Positions 6,532-16,569 of a stretch of 64,000 nt of DNA are shown in pieces. Every line of letters begins with the position of its first letter. Within the stretch, counting starts at the first letter, position 1. A program made the translations under genes and the position numbers. The notes beneath the pieces were generated by a model, which was not told the DNA's origin, searched no databases, and saw only the letters and a program-made list of their open reading frames with translations. Source of the DNA: an uncultured Rhodobacteraceae bacterium (GTDB taxonomy: Bacteria > Pseudomonadota > Alphaproteobacteria > Rhodobacterales > Rhodobacteraceae). The stretch spans positions 3,200 to 67,199 of the forward strand of contig CALESR010000270.1 of NCBI GenBank assembly GCA_937907485.1. The letters run 5' to 3'.

Positions 6532-7272
6532 CTATCGCGCTGGGCCAAGCCAGAGCGCCCGCAGCGCCGGGTCGCCGGCGATCTCGTCAGGGGGCGCGTC
6601 ATGCAGCACGATGCCCTGCGCGATCACGACCACGCGGTCGCAGATCGACAATGTGTCGTGCACATTGTGGTCGGTGACCAGAATGCCGATGCCCCGCGCG
6701 GCCAGATCGCGGATCTGCGCCTTGACCTGTGCAATCGACAGCGGGTCGAGCCCGGAAAACGGCTCGTCCAGCAGCAGATACCGTGGCTGAACGGCAAGGA
6801 GCCGGGCGATTTCGCAGCGCCGCCGTTGCCCGCCCGATACCTGCCGCGGTTTGGCGTCCCGCACCTCGGTCAGGCCCATGTCGCTCAGCAGAGTCTCCAG
6901 TCGCGCCTCGCGGATGGAGCGGTCGGGTTCGTGGTTTTGCAGCGCCAGACGGATATTGTCGGCCAGGCTGAGGCCGCGAAAGGCCGAGGGTTCCTGCGGC
7001 AGATAGCCAAGGCCGCAGCGCGCGCGTGCGTAAGGTGCAAGGCCGGTCAGGTCGCGTCCGTCGAGCAGCACTCGGCCACGGTCGGGCGACTCGGCGCCGG
7101 TCAGCAGGCGGTAGATCGTGGTTTTCCCGGCGCCATTCGGCCCCAGCAGACCGACGATCTGGCCGGGTTGCACGGCAAAGCTGGCATCCGCAACCGCCTG
7201 CACGCCGCGATAGCGCTTTGACAGACCGACCGCAGCTAGCGAGGGCAGGGTGTCAGGGGGGCCGTCGGTCAT
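6532..7272 (-). CDS. LptB-like ABC ATPase
   Basis: Walker A GPNGAGKTT, LGYLPQEPSAFRGL, signature VSGGQRRRCEIAR, Walker B LLLDEPFSGLDP, and the LptB-typical GIGILVTDHNVHDTL. ATG at 7272 is coupled to the upstream stop. Confidence 0.9.
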   Translation of the reverse strand: MTDGPPDTLPSLAAVGLSKRYRGVQAVADASFAVQPGQIVGLLGPNGAGKTTIYRLLTGAESPDRGRVLLDGRDLTGLAPYARARCGLGYLPQEPSAFRGLSLADNIRLALQNHEPDRSIREARLETLLSDMGLTEVRDAKPRQVSGGQRRRCEIARLLAVQPRYLLLDEPFSGLDPLSIAQVKAQIRDLAARGIGILVTDHNVHDTLSICDRVVVIAQGIVLHDAPPDEIAGDPALRALWLGPAR

Positions 7273-8261
7273 GACGCCGATTTCGGCCCGGACGGCATCG
7301 CGCCCAGTCCCAGTGCCACCACGCCGACGATCAGCACCGTCACCAGCATGAGGCCTTGATGCAGCACGCCGATGGCGATGGCCTGCGCAGGGGGGGTGCC
7401 CAGCGCGGCATAGGTCGAGACCACCGCCAGGGCCTGTGGGCCCAGATGCACCGGCGCCAGCGGCAGCAGCGACACCAGACTGATCGAGGCCACCGCCAGC
7501 AGCGCCAGCGCGGGCGAGGCCTGAATACCCAGCGCGTGCTGCAGCGCCAGCGCGGCGGCGACCTCGAGCGCCTTCTTGGCCAGCGCCAGTATGGTTCCCG
7601 GCACCAGCACCCGGCGGCGCAGCAACTGCCCGACGTCCGACGCATAGCGGGCGATCACCCCGCCGATCCGCGCCGTCCAACGCTGCCCAAAGCGGCGCAA
7701 AGCGAAGAGCAGCAGGCCCAGTCCCAGCATCCCGGCGGTCAGCGCAAGGGTCGCGTGGCGCAGCGACTCTGGCAGCGGGGCGAGCGCAAGAGCCAGCGCC
7801 AGCAAGGCCAGTTTGGCCGCTCCGGCCAGCACCTGATCGAGGGTCATGACCCCCGTGGCCTCGGCCGGCGTCAATCCGGCATGGGCGTGCAGCGCCGCGG
7901 CCCCCGTGGCGACACCGCCGAGGCCGGACACCGCAAACCGCGCGCCGATCGACAGCGCGACAACCTGCGCCATCACCGGCCAGCGCACCCGGCGCAGCGG
8001 TGCGGCAAGGCACCGCCATTGCCAGACCCAGAGAGGATAGACCGCCAGACTGGCCGCCAGCGCCAGCGCCAGCAAGGCAGAATCTGTCGCGGCCAGTGCA
8101 AGGCCGACCTGCTGCCACGGCGTCAGAACGATCCCCAGAACCAGCAATCCGCCGATGACCAGCGCCGCACCCGCCACCACCAGCCGCCGACCTCGGCCCA
8201 AAGGGCCAGTCGAGCGCAGCGGCGCATGCAGCGAGGCTGCGTCGCGATGTCCTATGCGCAT
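7269..8261 (-). CDS. YbhN/UPF0104 (lysylphosphatidylglycerol synthase TM domain) flippase-like membrane protein
   Basis: Polytopic hydrophobic protein with W.W..L, LPLAPVHLGPQ..AV...Y..LG and A.AIGVLH.G, the typical LPG_synthase_TM layout. Start is uncertain. Confidence 0.68.
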   Translation of the reverse strand: MRIGHRDAASLHAPLRSTGPLGRGRRLVVAGAALVIGGLLVLGIVLTPWQQVGLALAATDSALLALALAASLAVYPLWVWQWRCLAAPLRRVRWPVMAQVVALSIGARFAVSGLGGVATGAAALHAHAGLTPAEATGVMTLDQVLAGAAKLALLALALALAPLPESLRHATLALTAGMLGLGLLLFALRRFGQRWTARIGGVIARYASDVGQLLRRRVLVPGTILALAKKALEVAAALALQHALGIQASPALALLAVASISLVSLLPLAPVHLGPQALAVVSTYAALGTPPAQAIAIGVLHQGLMLVTVLIVGVVALGLGAMPSGPKSAS

Positions 8262-8340: not shown

Positions 8341-9423
<1,083 letters not shown>

Positions 9424-11604: not shown

Positions 11605-12207
11605 TTGCGCATCCATGAACCGTTCGTCGAACCCGTTGCCCGCCGTCTGGTGGGGTCCGGCATCAGCCCCGATGCGCTGACGCTGGCCTCGGTGCCACCG
11701 GCGGTGCTCGCCGGGGTCTGCGCGGCCGTCGGCTGGTTCGAGGCGGCGGCGCTGGCCTTCACACTTAGCGGTGTGCTCGACCTGCTCGATGGGGCGCTGG
11801 CGCGGGCGATGGATCGGCGCAGCCGGTTCGGCGCCTTGCTCGATTCGTCGCTTGACCGGGTCGCGGATGCCTGTGTGCCGATCGGGCTGGTGGTGTTTTA
11901 CAGTGCGCAGGGCGGGCTGGCCGCAATCCCGGCGCTGGCGCTGCTGGCGTCGCTGTGGGTCTCGTATATCCGCGCGCGGGCGCAGTCGCTGGCGCTGGAA
12001 CTGCCCCGGCTGTGGATGCGCCGCGAGGACCGCTTTGTCGCGCTGGTGCTGGCGCTGCTGGCGGCGCGCTGGGTGGCGCCCGAGTCTGACGTGCCCGCGG
12101 TGCTGCTGCTGTGGGTCTGCGCTGCCATCGCGGTTCTGGGGATGATTGCCGGTGGCATGGCGCTGGTGCAGGCGGCACGACTGGCCCGTCAACCGCCCGA
12201 GGCGTGA
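11605..12207 (+). CDS. CDP-alcohol phosphatidyltransferase, probable phosphatidylinositol-phosphate synthase
   Basis: Signature DLLDGALARAMDRRSRFGALLDSSLDRVAD, plus SYIRARAQSL and RREDR as in PIP/AIP synthases. Near ino1. TTG start is uncertain. Confidence 0.88.
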   Translation: MRIHEPFVEPVARRLVGSGISPDALTLASVPPAVLAGVCAAVGWFEAAALAFTLSGVLDLLDGALARAMDRRSRFGALLDSSLDRVADACVPIGLVVFYSAQGGLAAIPALALLASLWVSYIRARAQSLALELPRLWMRREDRFVALVLALLAARWVAPESDVPAVLLLWVCAAIAVLGMIAGGMALVQAARLARQPPEA

Positions 12208-13070
12208 TTGCCCCAGTCCGCCGCAAAGACCGCGATGGCCGTGGCGTCATTCTGGCCCGAGCGGTTTGGCCCGTCGGTCAGCGCCTGAATCGCCGAGGCG
12301 AGGGTCTCGACCGGAAAGCTGCGGGTCGGCACCACCAGCCGCGGCACGCCGCGCCGCGCCAGATGCCCCGAGACCCAGACATCATCGACCCAGCGCACGG
12401 CCTCGGGCATGCCCGAGAAATCGTGCACCGCCGCATCCAGCGCCCTCGGCGGCAGCAGATAGCCCCAGGTGCCAAACAGGATATCGACCGGGACCAGCCG
12501 GGTCTGCGCACTGCACAGAACGTGGTGCAGCGCGGGAAACTCTCGCCCCGGCGTCAGGCACACGCCACGCAGGCCCAGCGCGGCGGTGGGGTTCGCCCGG
12601 TGTGCAGTCAGCAGCGAGGCCAGAAAATCGCGCGGATAGACCACGTCATCATCGACAACCACGAGGCAGGCGTCGGGGTCAGCCGCCAGTGTTGGCAACA
12701 GCTTGGTCACCGGGCCTTCGTCGGTGCAGCGCAGCACCTCGACACCGGGCGGCAGACCCAGCGTCTGTGGGTCAGGATAGGCCGCGCCGTCGCGTCGGCG
12801 GGTCCGGGGCAGGCACAGCACGATGCGGTCGGCGGGCTGGGACTGGTCGATCAGACTGCGCAGGACGCGGTGCAGCCGATGCGCGCGGGCGGGAATCGTG
12901 GTCAGCGTCACCACCAGCCGTTCGGGCCGCGGTGTGGCGGGCACTGGAGCGGGCACCCGCCAGCCCAGCCGCAGCGCCCGCAGATACAGCCCGGCGATCT
13001 GCGCCAGACTGGGCTGGCGATAGCGCGCAAGACTGCGGGCGATGTTTTGCAACAGGGGCACTTTGGTCAT
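12189..13070 (-). CDS. GT-A fold glycosyltransferase (GT2-like)
   Basis: VVTLTTIPAR, LRSLIDQS, DEGPVTKLLP, acidic VVVDDDVVYP, late DDVWVSG. ATG at 13070 is coupled to the upstream stop. Confidence 0.7.
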   Translation of the reverse strand: MTKVPLLQNIARSLARYRQPSLAQIAGLYLRALRLGWRVPAPVPATPRPERLVVTLTTIPARAHRLHRVLRSLIDQSQPADRIVLCLPRTRRRDGAAYPDPQTLGLPPGVEVLRCTDEGPVTKLLPTLAADPDACLVVVDDDVVYPRDFLASLLTAHRANPTAALGLRGVCLTPGREFPALHHVLCSAQTRLVPVDILFGTWGYLLPPRALDAAVHDFSGMPEAVRWVDDVWVSGHLARRGVPRLVVPTRSFPVETLASAIQALTDGPNRSGQNDATAIAVFAADWGNHASGG

Positions 13071-13840
13071 GGCGCCCAGACCTCGGCCGCGGGGCGCCAG
13101 ACCGGCGCGGCAAAGGGATTGACCAGGCGATTGCGCTCGATCCAGCGGCGGGTCAGCGAGGGGCGGGGCAAGCCTGCGTCCTTCCAACTGCCCTGCGTCA
13201 GGTGGCGGGTGACGATGTGGCGGTTCACTGGCCAGATGTCGGGATAGTCCAGCGGCGCCATGAGTTGGATCTGCGCGCCGATCCAGACCTCGGGCCAAGG
13301 GCGTTCTTGCAACAGGCGGGTCAGCATCCGGGGCCCGGTGATGTCCTCGATCCGGTGCCGGGGGGGCTGGGGTTCGGCGGCGAACAGCGCAAAGGCCCGC
13401 TCGATCGCCGCGCGCAGGAGTGGATGGCCGGGCCGGGTTGCCAGAATGCAATTGGCGATCTGCAGCGGCTTGAGATAGCCCAACTCGCGCTGACGCCGGG
13501 CGCCCAGATGCGCCTCGATCGACAGCGAGCATGGGCGCGCGAACAGGTCAGGCGGCAAGGGGCGCAGGGGTTGCATGTCGATATCGGCATAGAGCCCGCC
13601 ATCGCGCCACAGCACGGCCAGCCGGAACACATCGGCGCGCATCACGCCAAAGGGCATCGCGTCAAAGGCGGCGAGGTGCTGGGGCGCGACCTCGGCCAAC
13701 ACCGCGCGGCTGGCGTCGTCGTCGTATAACCGCAGCTCCAGGCCCGGGTTGAGCCGTGCCCAATCCGCACGCAGGGCCTCGGCCTGGGGCGGCAGTCGGG
13801 CCGTTTTCCAGGTTTGCGACAGGATGCGGGGCAGGGGCAT
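13067..13840 (-). CDS. GT32 glycosyltransferase (Och1/Sur1 DXD sugar-binding family)
   Basis: LPRILSQTWKT, RADVFRLAVLWRDGGLYADID, ANCILATRPGHPLL, ITGPRMLT and HLTQGSW are GT32 hallmarks. Confidence 0.87.
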   Translation of the reverse strand: MPLPRILSQTWKTARLPPQAEALRADWARLNPGLELRLYDDDASRAVLAEVAPQHLAAFDAMPFGVMRADVFRLAVLWRDGGLYADIDMQPLRPLPPDLFARPCSLSIEAHLGARRQRELGYLKPLQIANCILATRPGHPLLRAAIERAFALFAAEPQPPRHRIEDITGPRMLTRLLQERPWPEVWIGAQIQLMAPLDYPDIWPVNRHIVTRHLTQGSWKDAGLPRPSLTRRWIERNRLVNPFAAPVWRPAAEVWAP

Positions 13841-13971
13841 GGGATATCCAGCAGGGATCAGCGCGCAGGATACGGTGACCGGCGCAGGGTTTCAACCGGC
13901 GCGGCATCGCGGCCAATTGCACAGGGTGCGCCTCGCGGTCTAGGGTCGGGTGCACGACAAAGGACCGCCCT

Positions 13972-14691
13972 GTGACCCACCGTCCCATCGCCTATATGAC
14001 CGTCGATGCCGAACCCGATTGCCCGCCCTTCCTGTGGACATGGCGCGGCATCGACGAGGGGCTGCCGCTGCTGCTGGACCTGCTGGCGGACGAAGGTGTG
14101 CCCGCGACCTTTTTCACCACGGGCGGCACCGCCGAGGCCCGGCCCGAGGCCGTCACTGCCATCGTCAAGGGCGGGCACGAACTGGCCTGCCACGGCTATT
14201 CGCACAGCAATTTTCGCACGCTTGACCGCGACGCCGCCCGCGACGAGATCACCCGCACCAACGCGATTCTGCGCGCGCATGCCCCGGTAACCTCGTTTCG
14301 CGCGCCGTATCTGTCCTTTCCCGAGGCCTATGTCCCGCTGCTGGCCGAGGCCGGGTTTGCCGTGGACAGCTCGCGCGGGATCTACAAGCGCAACGAGCCG
14401 CGCCATGACGGCGACGGGATGCCCTTTCGGCTGGATGCGTCGGTGACGTCGAGCGTGCTGCGCCTGCCGCGCGTGCTGCGCAGCCCGTATTTTCATGCGC
14501 TGCGCAGTCCGGTCACGCTGTTCGTGCATCCTTGGGAATTCGTCGATTTGTCGCGCACGGGTATCCGGCTGGACTGCCGGTTCCGCACCGGGCAACCCGC
14601 GCTGGACCGGCTGCGCACCACGCTGCGCTGGTTCAAGGCGCGCAATTTCCAGTTTCGGCTGGTGAACGAGGCACCGGCCCTAGCCGCCTGA
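13972..14691 (+). CDS. NodB-type polysaccharide/glycolipid deacetylase
   Basis: MTVDAE, VPATFF, GHELACHGYSH, SFRAPY, FVHPWEF. Confidence 0.85.
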   Translation: MTHRPIAYMTVDAEPDCPPFLWTWRGIDEGLPLLLDLLADEGVPATFFTTGGTAEARPEAVTAIVKGGHELACHGYSHSNFRTLDRDAARDEITRTNAILRAHAPVTSFRAPYLSFPEAYVPLLAEAGFAVDSSRGIYKRNEPRHDGDGMPFRLDASVTSSVLRLPRVLRSPYFHALRSPVTLFVHPWEFVDLSRTGIRLDCRFRTGQPALDRLRTTLRWFKARNFQFRLVNEAPALAA

Positions 14692-15777
14692 GGCCATCTG
14701 CCGATAGAGCGCCAGATGCTGCGCCGCAACTTTGGGCCAGTCAAAACGCCCAAGGGCGGGGCGCGGACCGGTCAGCCGCCGGGCCAGGTCGGAATCCATG
14801 GCCAGCGCCTGCAGCGCCTCGATCATGGCAGCGTCGCTGTCGCACAGAAAGCCGTCCTCGCCGTCGCGGATGAACTCGGCCAGACCGGTGCCCGCGCGGC
14901 CGATCACCGGCAGCCCGGCGGCGCGGGCCTCGAGCGCGGCGATGCCAAAGGATTCGTTGCGCGACGGCAGGACAAAGGCATGGGCGCTGCGATAGAGGGT
15001 GCGCAGATCCTCGCGGCCCAGCCAACCGGGGTTTTGCACGCCGGCGCCCAGCGTGGCGCGGTGACGTCCCTCACCGGCGACCACCATCTCGACGGGCCGG
15101 TCGATGCGCCGTTCCAGAGCCTCGCGCAGCCTTCCCAGCACCTGTGGCCGTTTCTTGCGCTCGAGTCGCATTGCCGAGACCAGCCGAAAAGCTCCCCCGG
15201 CAGGCGGTTGCGCGGGGTCGGCCATCCAGAACCCGGCGTCAAAGCCATTGGGCAGAACCTGTGGCGCGATGGTGGACAGTGGCGCCAGTTGTGCCGCGAT
15301 TCGGGAACTGACCGCTGTCAGTCGCACGTCCGGCCACCGCGGACCCAGCCAGCGCAGCAGGGGTGCCAGCGCCGCCAGATCGGAATGCGCGGTCAGCATC
15401 ACGGGCAGGCCCAGACTGCGCGCGGCGATCAGCCCGGCGAGGCAGGCGGGCGCGACGATGCTGGCATGAACATGCACCACATCGGGCGCGATCGCGGTCA
15501 GCGCTGTCGCCATCCGCCGCACCAGCCGGGGCGACACCGCAAGGTCAAACCCCGGCAACCGCAGCCCGCCCGGTGAAAAAACCGCAACCTCGTCGCTGCG
15601 CGCGCCAGGCTGCGGGGTCAGGACGCTGACCTGCGCCCCCGCAGCGGTCAGCGCCCGGCCGAGGCCGGACAGGTGGCTCTCGATGCCGCCACGGCGCGGG
15701 GCAAACCAGTCGCTGACAAAGGTGATCTTCAGACCTCGGGTCGGGGCAAAGGCCGCTTCGGCAGGCATTGTCGGCAA
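14680..15777 (-). CDS. GT4 glycosyltransferase, PIG-A/PimA-like
   Basis: N-terminal FVSDWFAPRRGGIESHL, DVVHVHAS...TAHS, and GT4 EX7E motif ESFGIAALE. Confidence 0.9.
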   Translation of the reverse strand: MPTMPAEAAFAPTRGLKITFVSDWFAPRRGGIESHLSGLGRALTAAGAQVSVLTPQPGARSDEVAVFSPGGLRLPGFDLAVSPRLVRRMATALTAIAPDVVHVHASIVAPACLAGLIAARSLGLPVMLTAHSDLAALAPLLRWLGPRWPDVRLTAVSSRIAAQLAPLSTIAPQVLPNGFDAGFWMADPAQPPAGGAFRLVSAMRLERKKRPQVLGRLREALERRIDRPVEMVVAGEGRHRATLGAGVQNPGWLGREDLRTLYRSAHAFVLPSRNESFGIAALEARAAGLPVIGRAGTGLAEFIRDGEDGFLCDSDAAMIEALQALAMDSDLARRLTGPRPALGRFDWPKVAAQHLALYRQMASGG

Positions 15778-15861: not shown

Positions 15862-15890
15862 TTGCACTGTCTGCGTAGGCGGGCAATAGT
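15862..15890 (+). promoter_or_regulatory. Possible sigma70-type promoter for the barrel gene
   Basis: TTGCAC-17 bp-AATAGT; a pattern match only. Confidence 0.22.
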
Positions 15891-16005
15891 CGCGCTGGCA
15901 ACCGTCCATTCGGGAGTGGAACAGATGGCGATGTGTGGCGGCAGGCACCTGGAGCACCGTGGATGCCTGCGCTCAAGATTCGGGCTTCGGGTCTTTGTGT
16001 CGCTG

Positions 16006-16569
16006 ATGATCGCCTTGCTGCTGGCCCAGATGCCCCCCGGCGCCGCGCGCGCGCAGGATCTGTCGTGGCAGGTCTGGGGCGCCGTGATGACCGACAATGA
16101 CGTCCGGCAACTGGTAACCTTTGACAGCATCCGGTTGCTGGAGTCTGGTCTGGTCGGTTTCGCGCTGAACACCCGCTTTGGCCGCCCGTACGACCTGCCC
16201 TTTGGCCAGCTTCGTTTCGAGGCCGAGGCGCAATTGGTTCGCCATTTCGGCCTGCAGGATCATTGGGAGGTCAACCTGCCGGTGGGCCTGCGCTTTGCCC
16301 CGCGCCGCCGGATTTTGGGGTTCGACAGTCTGGCGTTTCTGATAGGGCCGTCGATGGCCTCGCAGATCCCGGCGATCGAACTGCGCCGCGGAGGCGGGGT
16401 GGGGTCACGGGGAATGGTCTATTTCCATGTCGAACTGGAGCGTCAGCTGCGGTCCGACCCCGCCGCGCGGATCTTCCTGCGGTTGCACCACCGCTCGGGT
16501 GGCTATGGGCTGTTTGCCAATGCGGTGGGGACCAACGCATTCGCCATCGGCTATCGCCGGGCGTTCTGA
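16006..16569 (+). CDS. Putative outer-membrane beta-barrel (PagL-like topology); start uncertain (15925-16006)
   Basis: Signal-peptide-like MIALLLAQMPPGAARA|QD, alternating amphipathic strands, RLHHRSG, C-terminal AIGYRRAF ending in Phe (BAM signal). Confidence 0.5.
   Translation: MIALLLAQMPPGAARAQDLSWQVWGAVMTDNDVRQLVTFDSIRLLESGLVGFALNTRFGRPYDLPFGQLRFEAEAQLVRHFGLQDHWEVNLPVGLRFAPRRRILGFDSLAFLIGPSMASQIPAIELRRGGGVGSRGMVYFHVELERQLRSDPAARIFLRLHHRSGGYGLFANAVGTNAFAIGYRRAF

What the first reader, a model, noticed from the sequence alone, without database searches (positions are those of the whole stretch)
12189..13840. Coupled GT32 (Sur1/Csh1-like) + GT-A pair as IPC glycan-extending enzymes
GT32 is the family of the yeast IPC mannosyltransferases that make MIPC. 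Finding one in the same cluster as an Aur1-like enzyme and Ino1 recapitulates the fungal step order. The ATGA-coupled GT-A enzyme (DDD motif) could add the next sugar, as in plant GIPCs.
Basis: partly seen in the sequence, partly recalled or inferred. Interest (0 to 1): 0.7.

Follow-up and report, generated by a model that had tools for sequence, protein, structure and literature searches.

The report
Sugar-adding gene pair for inositol lipids
Two overlapping sugar-transferase genes sit inside a rare bacterial gene cluster for inositol-containing membrane lipids and most likely decorate that lipid's head group, but the yeast-style "mannose on inositol-phosphoceramide" reading is only partly supported, and no function has been tested in the laboratory.

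Summary
A 257-aa GT32 gene (13067-13840, minus strand) and a 293-aa GT-A gene (12189-13070, minus strand) overlap by ATGA. Both are real, conserved genes. The GT32 matches Pfam PF04488, and its closest solved structure is yeast Och1. The GT-A enzyme has no significant Pfam family. By profile and by fold it is nearest the alpha-GlcNAc transferases KfiA and PmHS2 (GT45), and it shares their DDD(I/V)(I/V)YP motif.

Synteny places the pair with the inositol-lipid genes on its left and with the GT4 and deacetylase genes immediately to its right, not with the Wzc/Wzx polysaccharide cluster further right. Among 31 non-actinobacterial loci holding a GT-A ortholog, 28 have MIPS, 28 have GT4, 25 have the deacetylase, and none has Wzc or CapD.

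GT-A is a core member of this module, together with GT4 and a deacetylase. GT32 is accessory. It occurs both in clusters with ceramide genes and in eight genomes that lack any Aur1-like or bCerS-like gene. The acceptor is therefore probably the inositol(-glycan) head group, not IPC as such.

Both enzymes lack membrane-spanning segments, unlike Sur1/Csh1. Donor sugars, reaction order and product are inferred, not shown. The cluster is rare: 0 of 200 other genomes in the same family carry GT-A. Cultured carriers exist, so the prediction can be tested.

The parts
13067..13840 (-). GT32 glycosyltransferase gene (257 aa, soluble or membrane-peripheral, retaining GT-A fold)
   Evidence: PF04488 at E 9.4e-12. 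Profile hit to Och1 9n3s at E 4.9e-20. AF2 model pLDDT 95.5. Best Foldseek hit is Och1 at E 1.9e-13. No TM segment.
13577..13585 (-). GT32 catalytic DXD (D86-I87-D88) within GGLYADIDMQ
   Evidence: D86 and D88 are invariant in 46 homologues. Codons read.
12189..13070 (-). GT-A glycosyltransferase gene (293 aa), KfiA/GT45-like, with no significant Pfam family
   Evidence: Pfam GT2 hits below cut-off. AF2 model pLDDT 93.6. Foldseek best hit KfiA 5z8b at E 8.5e-11, TM 0.75, followed by PmHS2. Profile hits to PmHS2 at E 4.5e-6 and KfiA at E 3e-4, with shared motifs.
13067..13070 (-). ATGA overlap of the GT32 stop and the GT-A start (translational coupling)
   Evidence: Sequence. Overlap or near-abutment is conserved in L001, L003 and L005.
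12645..12653 (-). GT-A DDD motif (D140-D142) within VVVDDDVVYPRDF
   Evidence: Invariant in 50 homologues. Aligns to DDDIIYP of PmHS2 and KfiA.
12381..12386 (-). Second invariant acidic pair of GT-A (D229-D230 in WVDDVWVSGHLAR)
   Evidence: Invariant columns.
12921..13070 (-). GT-A N-terminal extension of about 50 aa: two basic amphipathic helices plus a Pro-rich linker, absent from KfiA; inferred membrane-interface anchor
   Evidence: Helices 6-15 and 22-34 in the model. R16 and R31 invariant. Hydrophobic moment computed. The KfiA alignment starts at GT-A residue 52.
13867..13895 (-). Promoter-like TTGAAA-17-TATCCT, 27 nt upstream of the GT32 start, in the 131-bp divergent region shared with the deacetylase gene
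   Evidence: Consensus scan. The block is conserved in the Rhodobacteraceae relative L006 but not in Roseovarius. Weak evidence.
13972..14691 (+). Functional partner: CE4 polysaccharide-deacetylase-family gene
   Evidence: PF01522. Present in 25 of 31 GT-A loci. Directly downstream of GT-A on the same strand in 9 loci.
14680..15777 (-). Functional partner: GT4 glycosyltransferase
   Evidence: Pfam GT4/GT1. Present in 28 of 31 proteobacterial and 13 of 13 Nocardia-type GT-A loci.
11605..12207 (+). Context: CDP-alcohol phosphatidyltransferase, PIP-synthase-like; its 3' end overlaps the GT-A 3' end by 19 bp (convergent)
   Evidence: PF01066. Best NCBIfam matches are archaetidylinositol-phosphate and PIP synthases, below their cut-offs.
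8341..9423 (+). Context: myo-inositol-1-phosphate synthase
   Evidence: PF01658 at E 2.4e-36. Present in 28 of 31 GT-A loci.

Best explanation
The two genes form a translationally coupled operon. They encode two cytoplasmic, membrane-peripheral, metal-dependent (DXD) GT-A-fold glycosyltransferases. I infer that they add sugars to the head group of the inositol phospholipid made by the surrounding genes.

The inferred supply route is as follows. MIPS makes inositol phosphate, and a PIP-synthase-like CDP-alcohol transferase makes PI(P). In this bacterium an Aur1/PI-DHC-synthase-like PAP2_3 enzyme, together with Spt-like and bCerS-like genes, probably moves the head group onto a ceramide.

GT-A (KfiA/GT45-like, so probably a retaining alpha-HexNAc transferase using a UDP-sugar) belongs to a conserved three-enzyme core with the adjacent GT4 and CE4 deacetylase. 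That core would give a glucosamine-containing glycosyl-inositol lipid. GT32 (Och1-like, so probably a retaining alpha-hexosyl transferase with unknown donor) is an accessory enzyme adding a further sugar. Because GT32 occurs with both PI-only and ceramide-type clusters, both enzymes probably recognise the inositol-glycan rather than the lipid tail. The finished glycolipid is presumably flipped and carried outward by the LptBFG-like and Wzt-type transporters of the cluster.

Shown here: gene structure, folds, motifs, family relationships and conserved neighbourhood. Inferred: acceptor, donors, linkage, order of action and export.
For: Neighbourhood anchored on GT-A. Of 31 non-actinobacterial loci with a GT-A ortholog (at least 45% identity, at least 7 kb of flank on each side), 28 have MIPS, 28 GT4, 27 an LptB-like ATPase, 25 the deacetylase, 23 the CDP-alcohol transferase and 23 PgpA. 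None has Wzc or CapD. The immediate neighbours of GT-A are the CDP-alcohol transferase (17 loci), GT32 (15), GT4 (13 upstream, 4 downstream) and the deacetylase (9).

Neighbourhood anchored on GT32. Six of seven contexts at 40-70% identity lie inside such clusters.

The Roseovarius relative keeps the same cluster but has unrelated genes where this window has the polysaccharide cluster.

Non-orthologous replacement. Nocardia, which makes PI natively (established knowledge), keeps an overlapping GT4-GT-A pair with a PIG-L-family deacetylase and a PlsC acyltransferase nearby.

Legionella has GT4, GT-A, CE4 deacetylase, a bCerS-like gene and a fused Spt in order on one strand.

Folds and motifs. 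GT-A is nearest KfiA and the KfiA-like C-terminal domain of PmHS2 (residues 301-450) and shares S-x-P-x-R and DDD(I/V)(I/V)YPxD(Y/F). GT32 is nearest Och1.

Both proteins lack TM segments and are net basic. GT-A has a conserved basic amphipathic N-terminal extension.

The neighbouring enzymes match PIP synthase and phosphoinositol-dihydroceramide synthase models best, as in the characterised Bacteroides cluster (PMC9246714).
Against: There are no biochemical or lipidomic data for any member, and no paper found describes such lipids in these taxa.

The GT32 to GT-A cassette also occurs in Spirochaetota beside only a sugar kinase/nucleotidyltransferase fusion, with no lipid genes found (likewise L071 and L077).

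One 48%-identical GT32 lies outside any such cluster.

Wzt-type ABC ATPases and further large GT1/GT4 enzymes in or next to the clusters leave open that the pair works on a polymer built on another carrier.

Similarity to KfiA is remote (15-19% identity), so donor and anomeric outcome are weak inferences.

No PIP phosphatase (PgpA-like) gene lies in this genome's cluster. The only PgpA match is on another contig.
Confidence: 0.6

Rival explanations
1. One reading: the GT32 is a Sur1/Csh1-type enzyme that puts the first mannose (from GDP-mannose) directly on the inositol of inositol-phosphoceramide, and GT-A adds the second sugar, repeating the fungal or plant order.
For: GT32 family membership is solid. 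In this genome and its two closest relatives the pair lies in one cluster with MIPS, Spt-like, bCerS-like and an Aur1-like PAP2_3 gene. A second ceramide-type cluster (L099) also carries a GT32, directly after Spt and SDR on the same strand. Some automatic annotations call homologues 'IPC mannosyltransferase catalytic subunit'.
Against: Eight of eight genomes with the orthologous GT32-GT-A pair have no Aur1-like or bCerS-like gene anywhere, so IPC cannot be the family's general acceptor (controls). Nineteen ceramide-type clusters lack GT32. All GT-A proteins with an adjacent GT32 form one clade, within which the Rhodobacteraceae group (four rows, three of them with ceramide genes seen in the locus) is the only one with ceramide genes. 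There is no TM segment, so the topology differs from Sur1/Csh1. GT4 and the deacetylase are more constant candidates for the first step. Most automatic names say 'OCH1-like'.
Confidence: 0.12
2. The pair builds a polysaccharide on another carrier (for example undecaprenyl phosphate) that is exported by the Wzm/Wzt-type ABC transporter next to the cluster, or it makes a soluble glycosyl-inositol compound (mycothiol-like or a compatible solute). Under this model the inositol lipid is a separate product, or only the final attachment site.
For: Wzt ATPases with the Wzt_C carbohydrate-binding domain flank many clusters, including this genome's (3.2 kb upstream of the window). Extra large GT1/GT4 enzymes are present. 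The GT32-GT-A cassette stands alone with a sugar-activating enzyme in Spirochaetota. MIPS, a GT4 and a deacetylase are also the first steps of mycothiol synthesis (established knowledge).
Against: No polyprenyl-phosphate priming transferase was seen among the annotated genes of the clusters inspected. The clusters consistently include lipid-building genes (CDP-alcohol transferase, PgpA, PlsC or Spt/bCerS-like, ACP-KAS-dehydratase) and LptBFG paralogs, which in Caulobacter transport sphingolipids (bioRxiv 10.64898/2026.04.12.717747). GT-A carries a conserved amphipathic N-terminal extension.
Confidence: 0.18
3. The pair belongs to the adjacent capsule/EPS (Wzc, Wzx, CapD, UDP-sugar dehydrogenase) cluster that starts about 3 kb to its right, and it adds sugars to that polysaccharide.
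For: Physical proximity only: a CapD-like gene, Wzc, UGDH, an epimerase and Wzx occupy roughly 16.6-29 kb of the window.
Against: None of 31 related loci has Wzc or CapD within 10 kb. UGDH is not recurrent near the pair. In Roseovarius the same lipid cluster ends at the GT4 gene and is followed by unrelated genes.
Confidence: 0.03

Closest known systems
Saccharomyces cerevisiae Sur1/Csh1 (GT32 mannosyl-IPC synthases)
   Same: Same CAZy/Pfam family (PF04488, DXD, GT-A fold). The gene lies in a cluster that can probably make an inositol-phospho-sphingolipid.
   Different: The bacterial protein is 257 aa with no TM segment and must act on the cytoplasmic face. Its orthologs also occur in genomes with no ceramide or IPC-synthase-like genes. 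Donor and acceptor are untested. No Sur1 or Csh1 sequence or structure was available here for direct comparison (their topology is from general knowledge).
Fungal Och1 alpha-1,6-mannosyltransferase (PDB 9n3s), the only solved GT32 matched
   Same: Best sequence-profile hit (E 4.9e-20) and best fold hit (E 1.9e-13), with the same DXD region.
   Different: Och1 acts on N-glycans in the Golgi, is larger (the solved chain is 431 residues) and shares only 17-20% identity over the structural alignment.
E. coli K5 KfiA and the KfiA-like C-terminal domain of Pasteurella PmHS2 (GT45; alpha-GlcNAc transfer to heparosan)
   Same: Best fold matches of GT-A (E 8.5e-11, TM 0.75). Shared S-x-P-x-R and DDD(I/V)(I/V)YPxD(Y/F) motifs.
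   Different: Identity is only 15-19% and profile E-values are 1e-4 to 1e-6. GT-A has an extra N-terminal extension of about 50 aa and lies in lipid clusters, not capsule clusters. No GlcA supply gene is conserved nearby.
Caulobacter crescentus Sgt1/Sgt2 (PMC6445935)
   Same: An adjacent pair of bacterial glycosyltransferases that glycosylate a sphingolipid head group in sequence.
   Different: Sgt1 and Sgt2 glycosylate ceramide directly (HexA, then Hex), with no inositol phosphate involved. Family relationship to the present pair was not tested.
Bacteroides thetaiotaomicron inositol-lipid cluster BT_1522-BT_1526 (PMC9246714)
   Same: MIPS, a PIP synthase, a PgpA-like PIP phosphatase and a PAP2-type PI-dihydroceramide synthase. 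The window's neighbours match the curated models built on these proteins best.
   Different: The genes listed for that cluster in the passages read (BT_1522-BT_1526) include no head-group glycosyltransferase. The present clusters add GT4, a deacetylase, GT-A and sometimes GT32, together with LptBFG-like transporters.
Eukaryotic GPI steps (PIG-A GT4, PIG-L deacetylase), mycobacterial PIM synthesis (PimA/PimB', GT4) and plant GIPC enzymes (IPUT1 GT8; GINT1/GMT1 GT64); all from general knowledge
   Same: Stepwise glycosylation of the inositol of PI or IPC, including a GlcNAc-to-GlcN deacetylation in GPI synthesis. EXTL2 (GT64) appears among the weaker fold matches of GT-A.
   Different: None of these pathways uses a GT32 together with a GT45-like enzyme. 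GPI and GIPC extension takes place in the ER or Golgi lumen with different enzyme families.

Membership tests
GT32 (Pfam PF04488, Gly_transf_sug) | Match to the family model above its curated cut-off | tested here: met
   45.9 bits against a cut-off of 23, E 9.4e-12. Confirmed on the genome.
GT32 (Pfam PF04488, Gly_transf_sug) | Conserved DXD in the GG-x-Y-x-D-x-D context | tested here: met
   G81, G82, Y84, D86 and D88 are invariant in 46 homologues.
GT32 (Pfam PF04488, Gly_transf_sug) | GT-A fold closest to a solved GT32 | tested here: met
   Och1 9n3s is the best hit by profile and by Foldseek. Model pLDDT is 95.5.
Sur1/Csh1 MIPC-synthase subfamily | Integral membrane protein with a lumen-facing catalytic domain (general knowledge) | tested here: not met
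   Maximum 19-residue Kyte-Doolittle hydropathy is 1.04, so no TM segment.
Sur1/Csh1 MIPC-synthase subfamily | Acts on IPC: expected to co-occur with an IPC-synthase-like gene | tested here: inconclusive
   Co-located with the Aur1-like PAP2_3 gene here, in L006 and in L099. However, 8 of 8 other genomes with the orthologous pair lack it genome-wide.
Sur1/Csh1 MIPC-synthase subfamily | Closer in sequence to Sur1/Csh1 than to Och1 or other GT32 clades | not tested
   No Sur1 or Csh1 sequence or structure was retrievable with these tools. Automatic names of homologues are mixed, mostly 'OCH1-like'.
Sur1/Csh1 MIPC-synthase subfamily | GDP-mannose donor; mannose alpha-linked to inositol | not testable with these tools
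   Needs an enzyme assay.
GT45 (KfiA / PmHS GlcNAc-transferase domain) | Significant sequence similarity and the signature motifs | tested here: inconclusive
   Profile E-values are 4.5e-6 (PmHS2) and 3e-4 (KfiA). The DDD(I/V)(I/V)YP and S-x-P-x-R motifs are shared, but identity is 15-19%.
GT45 (KfiA / PmHS GlcNAc-transferase domain) | Fold nearest to KfiA | tested here: met
   KfiA 5z8b at E 8.5e-11 with TM 0.75-0.77 normalised to KfiA, then PmHS2, ahead of GT27, GT13 and GT64 structures.
GT45 (KfiA / PmHS GlcNAc-transferase domain) | Alpha-GlcNAc transfer from UDP-GlcNAc to a GlcA acceptor | not testable with these tools
   Indirect test only: a UDP-glucose dehydrogenase is not conserved near the clusters.
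GT2 (Pfam PF00535 / PF13641) | Match above the curated cut-off | tested here: not met
   22.9 bits against 27, and 19.4 against 23.3. NCBIfam gives only EpsD at 19 bits against 370.
Bacterial inositol-lipid cluster (Bacteroides BT_1522-1526 type) | MIPS, PIP synthase and a PAP2-type PI-ceramide synthase in one locus | tested here: met
   PF01658. Best NCBIfam hits are PIP synthase models and NF052609, all below their equivalog cut-offs.
Bacterial inositol-lipid cluster (Bacteroides BT_1522-1526 type) | PgpA-like PIP phosphatase in the cluster | tested here: not met
   The only PgpA match in this genome is on another contig. It is present in 23 of 31 related loci.

The most novel reading that the evidence does not exclude
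The pair is part of an undescribed bacterial pathway that builds a glucosamine-containing glycosyl-inositol-phospholipid or -phosphoceramide, a GPI/GIPC-like lipoglycan, and sends it to the cell surface through LptBFG-like and Wzt-type transporters. Under this reading GT-A would define a new GT45-related family of lipid-head-group glycosyltransferases, shared by scattered Alphaproteobacteria, Legionella, Nocardia, Rokubacteria and some Bacteroidota. GT32 would be the first bacterial GT32 known to act on an inositol lipid.
Probability: 0.4. Interest if true: 0.8.

Novelty: new variant of a known kind. Interest (0 to 1): 0.6.

Why it matters
Glycosylated inositol lipids (GPI anchors, fungal and plant GIPCs, mycobacterial PIMs and lipoarabinomannan) are central to eukaryotic and actinobacterial cell surfaces. 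I found no report of them in Proteobacteria. If this pair does extend an inositol-lipid head group, several things follow:
- Gram-negative bacteria would have independently assembled a GPI/GIPC-like surface glycolipid from cytoplasmic GT-A and GT-B enzymes.
- Functions would be assigned to a GT-A family that lacks a Pfam model. Its wider family numbers about 6,000 cluster representatives at E <= 1e-10.
- Candidate cargo would be identified for the newly described sphingolipid-type LptFG paralogs.
- A marker gene set would be available for finding such lipids in Legionella and Nocardia.

Cultured carriers exist, so the prediction can be tested directly.

Tried and rejected
1. Wzc/Wzx membership. 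I tested whether the pair belongs to the neighbouring Wzc/Wzx polysaccharide cluster. Rejected: 0 of 31 related loci have Wzc or CapD.
2. GT32 tracking ceramide genes. Rejected as a rule. My opposite first impression, that GT32 is anti-correlated with ceramide genes, also had to be softened after GT32-anchored look-ups found the ceramide-type cluster L099 with a GT32.
3. Exclusive GT32-Wzt link. The apparent exclusive link between GT32 and Wzt ATPases within 10 kb did not hold. A GT32-less Rhodobiaceae cluster has two Wzt genes just outside the fetched locus.
4. Plant-like GlcN-GlcA-inositol core. KfiA-type enzymes use GlcA acceptors, so I asked whether UDP-glucose dehydrogenase is conserved near the clusters. 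It is not.
5. Pfam and NCBIfam gave no significant family for GT-A.
7. Literature searches for glycosylated inositol lipids in Alphaproteobacteria found nothing relevant.
8. Not possible with these tools: co-folding the two proteins to test for a complex, and comparing with Sur1/Csh1 sequences.
Full report
**What is in the sequence.**
The minus strand of 12189-13840 holds two genes.
- The upstream gene (13840 to 13067, 257 aa) matches Pfam PF04488, the GT32 'sugar-binding region containing DXD', at E 9.4e-12.
- The downstream gene starts at the ATG of an ATGA overlap (13070-13067) and ends at 12189 (293 aa).
- The list of open reading frames shows a longer 447-aa frame. Homologues are about 290 aa and align from the first residues of the 293-aa version, so the short version is the gene.
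- The downstream protein carries VVVDDDVVYP. Its hits to GT2-type Pfam families are all below the gathering scores.
- The genome is GC-rich (about 70% here) and full of spurious frames. These two frames nevertheless have high third-position GC and more than 140 and more than 200 homologues at 40-98% identity.

One nuance: the catalytic DXD of the GT32 is D86-I-D88 (D86 and D88 invariant), not the YDDD near the N-terminus.

**The surroundings.**
- Left of the pair, Pfam and NCBIfam scans give this order: an Aur1-like PAP2_3 protein (best curated match phosphoinositol-dihydroceramide synthase, E 1.5e-27), a protein with no family (the bCerS-like candidate of earlier notes), ACP, a ketoacyl synthase, two hot-dog dehydratase subunits, two LptF/G-like permeases and an LptB-like ATPase, an LPG-synthase-TM/flippase-like protein, myo-inositol-1-phosphate synthase, an Spt-like oxoamine synthase, an SDR, and a CDP-alcohol transferase whose best matches are PIP synthases.
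- Immediately right of the pair are a CE4 deacetylase and a GT4 enzyme.
- From about 16.6 kb onward there is a typical capsule/EPS cluster with a CapD-like gene, Wzc, UDP-sugar dehydrogenases and Wzx.
- The window starts 3.2 kb into its contig. That upstream stretch holds a Wzt-type ABC ATPase with a Wzt_C domain and another GT4-like gene.

The key question was therefore which neighbour set the pair belongs to.

**Comparative neighbourhoods.**
Look-ups of GT32 homologues gave these contexts.
- A Roseovarius relative (70% identity) has the same lipid cluster in the same order, but unrelated genes where the window has its polysaccharide cluster.
- A Hoeflea genome (59%) and a metagenomic contig (50%) keep GT32-GT-A next to the CDP-alcohol transferase, GT4, the deacetylase, PgpA, MIPS, LptBFG-like genes and Wzt ATPases. 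They have PlsC acyltransferases there, and no Spt-like or PAP2_3 gene within the 10-kb flanks.

I then fetched 80 genomic loci with a profile of GT-A homologues and scored them by tblastn with the window's proteins.

| Gene within 10 kb of GT-A | Loci (of 31 non-actinobacterial loci, GT-A >= 45% identity, full flanks) |
|---|---|
| MIPS | 28 |
| GT4 | 28 |
| LptB-like ATPase | 27 |
| Deacetylase | 25 |
| CDP-alcohol transferase | 23 |
| PgpA | 23 |
| PAP2_3 | 17 |
| Adjacent GT32 | 10 |
| Wzc or CapD | 0 |

The genes directly beside GT-A are the CDP-alcohol transferase, GT32, GT4 or the deacetylase in most loci. The pair therefore belongs with the inositol-lipid genes. The rival that it serves the neighbouring capsule cluster is effectively excluded.

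**GT-A is core, GT32 is accessory.**
- In a maximum-likelihood tree of GT-A, all proteins with an adjacent GT32 form one supported clade (99/93). Within it, the Rhodobacteraceae group (four rows, including the window; three show ceramide genes in the locus) is the only one with ceramide genes.
- Eight genomes of the other members of that clade have no homologue of the Aur1-like protein or of the bCerS-like protein anywhere. The same searches found both in four of four control genomes. In those eight bacteria the pair cannot act on IPC.
- Conversely, 19 ceramide-type clusters (Phreatobacter, Rhodobiaceae and other Hyphomicrobiales) have GT-A but no GT32.
- I first read this as anti-correlation. 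Look-ups anchored on more distant GT32 homologues corrected me. One contig (49% identity) is a ceramide-type cluster with PAP2_3, Spt, SDR and a sphingolipid desaturase, and GT32 sits at its end, away from GT-A. Two others (40-42%) are PI-type clusters with GT32 beside the LptFG genes. One (48%) lies outside any such cluster.
- GT32 is thus a recurrent but dispensable member of both cluster types (six of seven contexts). This fits an enzyme that recognises the inositol-glycan head group rather than the lipid tail.

**Distant relatives.**
- In about 13 Nocardia-type loci, GT-A (about 50% identity) follows a GT4 gene. In the one locus inspected gene by gene, the two overlap by 4 bp, and a PIG-L-family deacetylase and a PlsC acyltransferase lie nearby. 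A different deacetylase family fills the same slot in an organism that makes PI natively.
- In three Legionella species, GT4, GT-A (28-30% identity), a CE4 deacetylase, a bCerS-like gene and a fused Spt follow each other on one strand.
- Rokubacteria, Chthoniobacterales, Cyclobacteriaceae, Marinoscillum and a cyanobacterium have GT-A relatives near Spt-like or bCerS-like genes.
- The GT32 to GT-A order also recurs in a Gemmatimonadaceae genome and in three Spirochaetota genomes. In the one spirochaete locus that I annotated, the only related neighbour is a sugar kinase/nucleotidyltransferase fusion, with no lipid genes. This is the main caveat against a strictly inositol-lipid role for the cassette.

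**The proteins.**
- AlphaFold models are confident (pLDDT 93.6 and 95.5).
- The best structural match of GT32 is Och1 (E 1.9e-13), followed by GT44-type toxin glucosyltransferase domains. A sequence profile also finds Och1 (E 4.9e-20).
- The best structural matches of GT-A are E. coli KfiA (E 8.5e-11, TM 0.75 on KfiA) and Pasteurella PmHS2, ahead of GT27, GT13 and GT64 enzymes.
- A profile search finds the same two proteins and aligns the S-x-P-x-R strand motif and DDD(I/V)(I/V)YPxD(Y/F). In PmHS2 the aligned stretch is residues 301-450 of the C-terminal domain, which I take to be its GlcNAc-transferase domain because it is the part that resembles KfiA. KfiA is the N-acetylglucosaminyltransferase of heparosan synthesis (PMC2811250).
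- I therefore regard GT-A as a distant GT45-like enzyme and infer, weakly, a UDP-HexNAc donor and a retaining mechanism.
- Neither protein has a membrane-spanning segment, and both are net basic.
- GT-A has a conserved extension of about 50 residues, with two basic amphipathic helices, that KfiA lacks. This would suit docking on an anionic membrane surface.
- The wider GT-A family is large: 6,174 cluster representatives at E <= 1e-10. The orthologous group is rare: 0 of 200 other genomes of the same family and 1 weak hit in 400 of the class.

**Most likely mechanism.**
1. MIPS and the PIP-synthase-like enzyme make PI(P).
2. In this bacterium the Aur1-like enzyme probably transfers inositol phosphate to a ceramide-like lipid.
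3. GT4, GT-A and the deacetylase build a glucosamine-containing core on the inositol.
4. GT32 adds a further alpha-linked sugar.
5. The product is exported.

Which of GT4 or GT-A installs the GlcNAc that is later deacetylated cannot be decided. GT-A lies directly upstream of the deacetylase in nine loci and in Legionella. GT4 overlaps the deacetylase tail-to-tail in the window and in the clade that has GT32. I put 0.6 on the pair glycosylating an inositol-lipid head group, 0.12 on the specific Sur1-like 'first mannose on IPC' model, about 0.18 on a role in a polymer or soluble product not built on the inositol lipid, and 0.03 on the neighbouring capsule.

**Comparison with what is known, and novelty.**
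- The characterised Bacteroides inositol-lipid cluster, as listed in the passages I read (BT_1522-BT_1526), includes no head-group glycosyltransferase (PMC9246714).
- Caulobacter Sgt1 and Sgt2 glycosylate ceramide directly (PMC6445935).
- LptFG paralogs were recently tied to sphingolipid transport (bioRxiv 10.64898/2026.04.12.717747).
- I found no paper on glycosylated inositol lipids in Proteobacteria.

The enzymes belong to known fold families, so this is a new variant of known kinds in a new pathway context. It is not categorically new, and everything beyond sequence, fold and synteny remains inference. A weak promoter-like element upstream of GT32 is conserved in the closest relative only.

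Noticed in passing
L089:164-1501 (+) and L089:1508-2893 (-), i.e. G000 contig C270, 3.2 kb upstream of the window: A Wzt-type ABC ATPase with a Wzt_C carbohydrate-binding domain and a 461-aa GT4-like gene lie just before the Aur1-like gene. Orthologous Wzt genes (76% identity) precede PAP2_3 in the sister genome G001, and two lie next to the GT32-less Rhodobiaceae cluster. This suggests that an ABC-transporter-dependent glycan is part of these lipid clusters.
   Followed up: partly
L090:8883-13859 (Nocardia sp. NPDC051570): GT4 and GT-A overlap by 4 bp, with a PIG-L-family (PF02585) deacetylase and a PlsC acyltransferase nearby. This looks like a compact actinobacterial version of the GT4/GT-A/deacetylase module, possibly a new PI-glycolipid distinct from the PIMs.
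   Followed up: partly
L074:6549-16243 (Legionella santicrucis); also L075 and L081: One strand carries GT4, a GT-A relative, a CE4 deacetylase, a bCerS-like gene and an 1101-aa AMP-ligase/ACP/Spt fusion, preceded by a 683-aa multi-pass membrane protein on the opposite strand that I did not run through a family search. This is an apparent glycosphingolipid operon in Legionella, which I did not find described.
   Followed up: partly
L078:9079-12689 (Spirochaetota); also L071, L077 and L067 (Gemmatimonadaceae): The GT32 to GT-A gene order recurs at 23-39% identity far outside the Alphaproteobacteria. In the spirochaete it sits beside only a GHMP-kinase/nucleotidyltransferase fusion, so the cassette is older than its link to inositol lipids.
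   Followed up: partly
L099:5330-6295: A ceramide-type cluster in a 505-kb metagenomic contig also carries a Lipid_DES/FA_desaturase (sphingolipid delta-4-desaturase-like) gene between GT4 and MIPS.
   Followed up: no
L043, L046, L029: MAGs labelled Archangium gephyra, Flavobacteriaceae and Bordetella carry GT-A sequences identical or nearly identical to those of Phreatobacter or Rhodobiaceae clusters (zero or short branches in the tree). These are probably binning or labelling errors rather than transfers.
   Followed up: no
window 7269-8261 (-): The LPG_synthase_TM/flippase-like gene of the cluster is the same kind of protein that Heaver et al. noted (as a BT_1521 homologue) in the alternative Bacteroidetes inositol-lipid cluster. 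It is present in 20 of 31 GT-A loci, mainly the ceramide-type ones.
   Followed up: no
G000 contig C139:10456-10908: The genome's only PgpA-family gene lies on another contig. The Rhodobacteraceae clusters lack the cluster-borne PgpA (the putative PIP phosphatase) that 23 of 31 related loci have.
   Followed up: partly
window 15862-16569 (+): A 235-aa protein with no Pfam or NCBIfam match follows the GT4 gene and is conserved (64% identity) at the same place in the sister Rhodobacteraceae genome L006.
   Followed up: no
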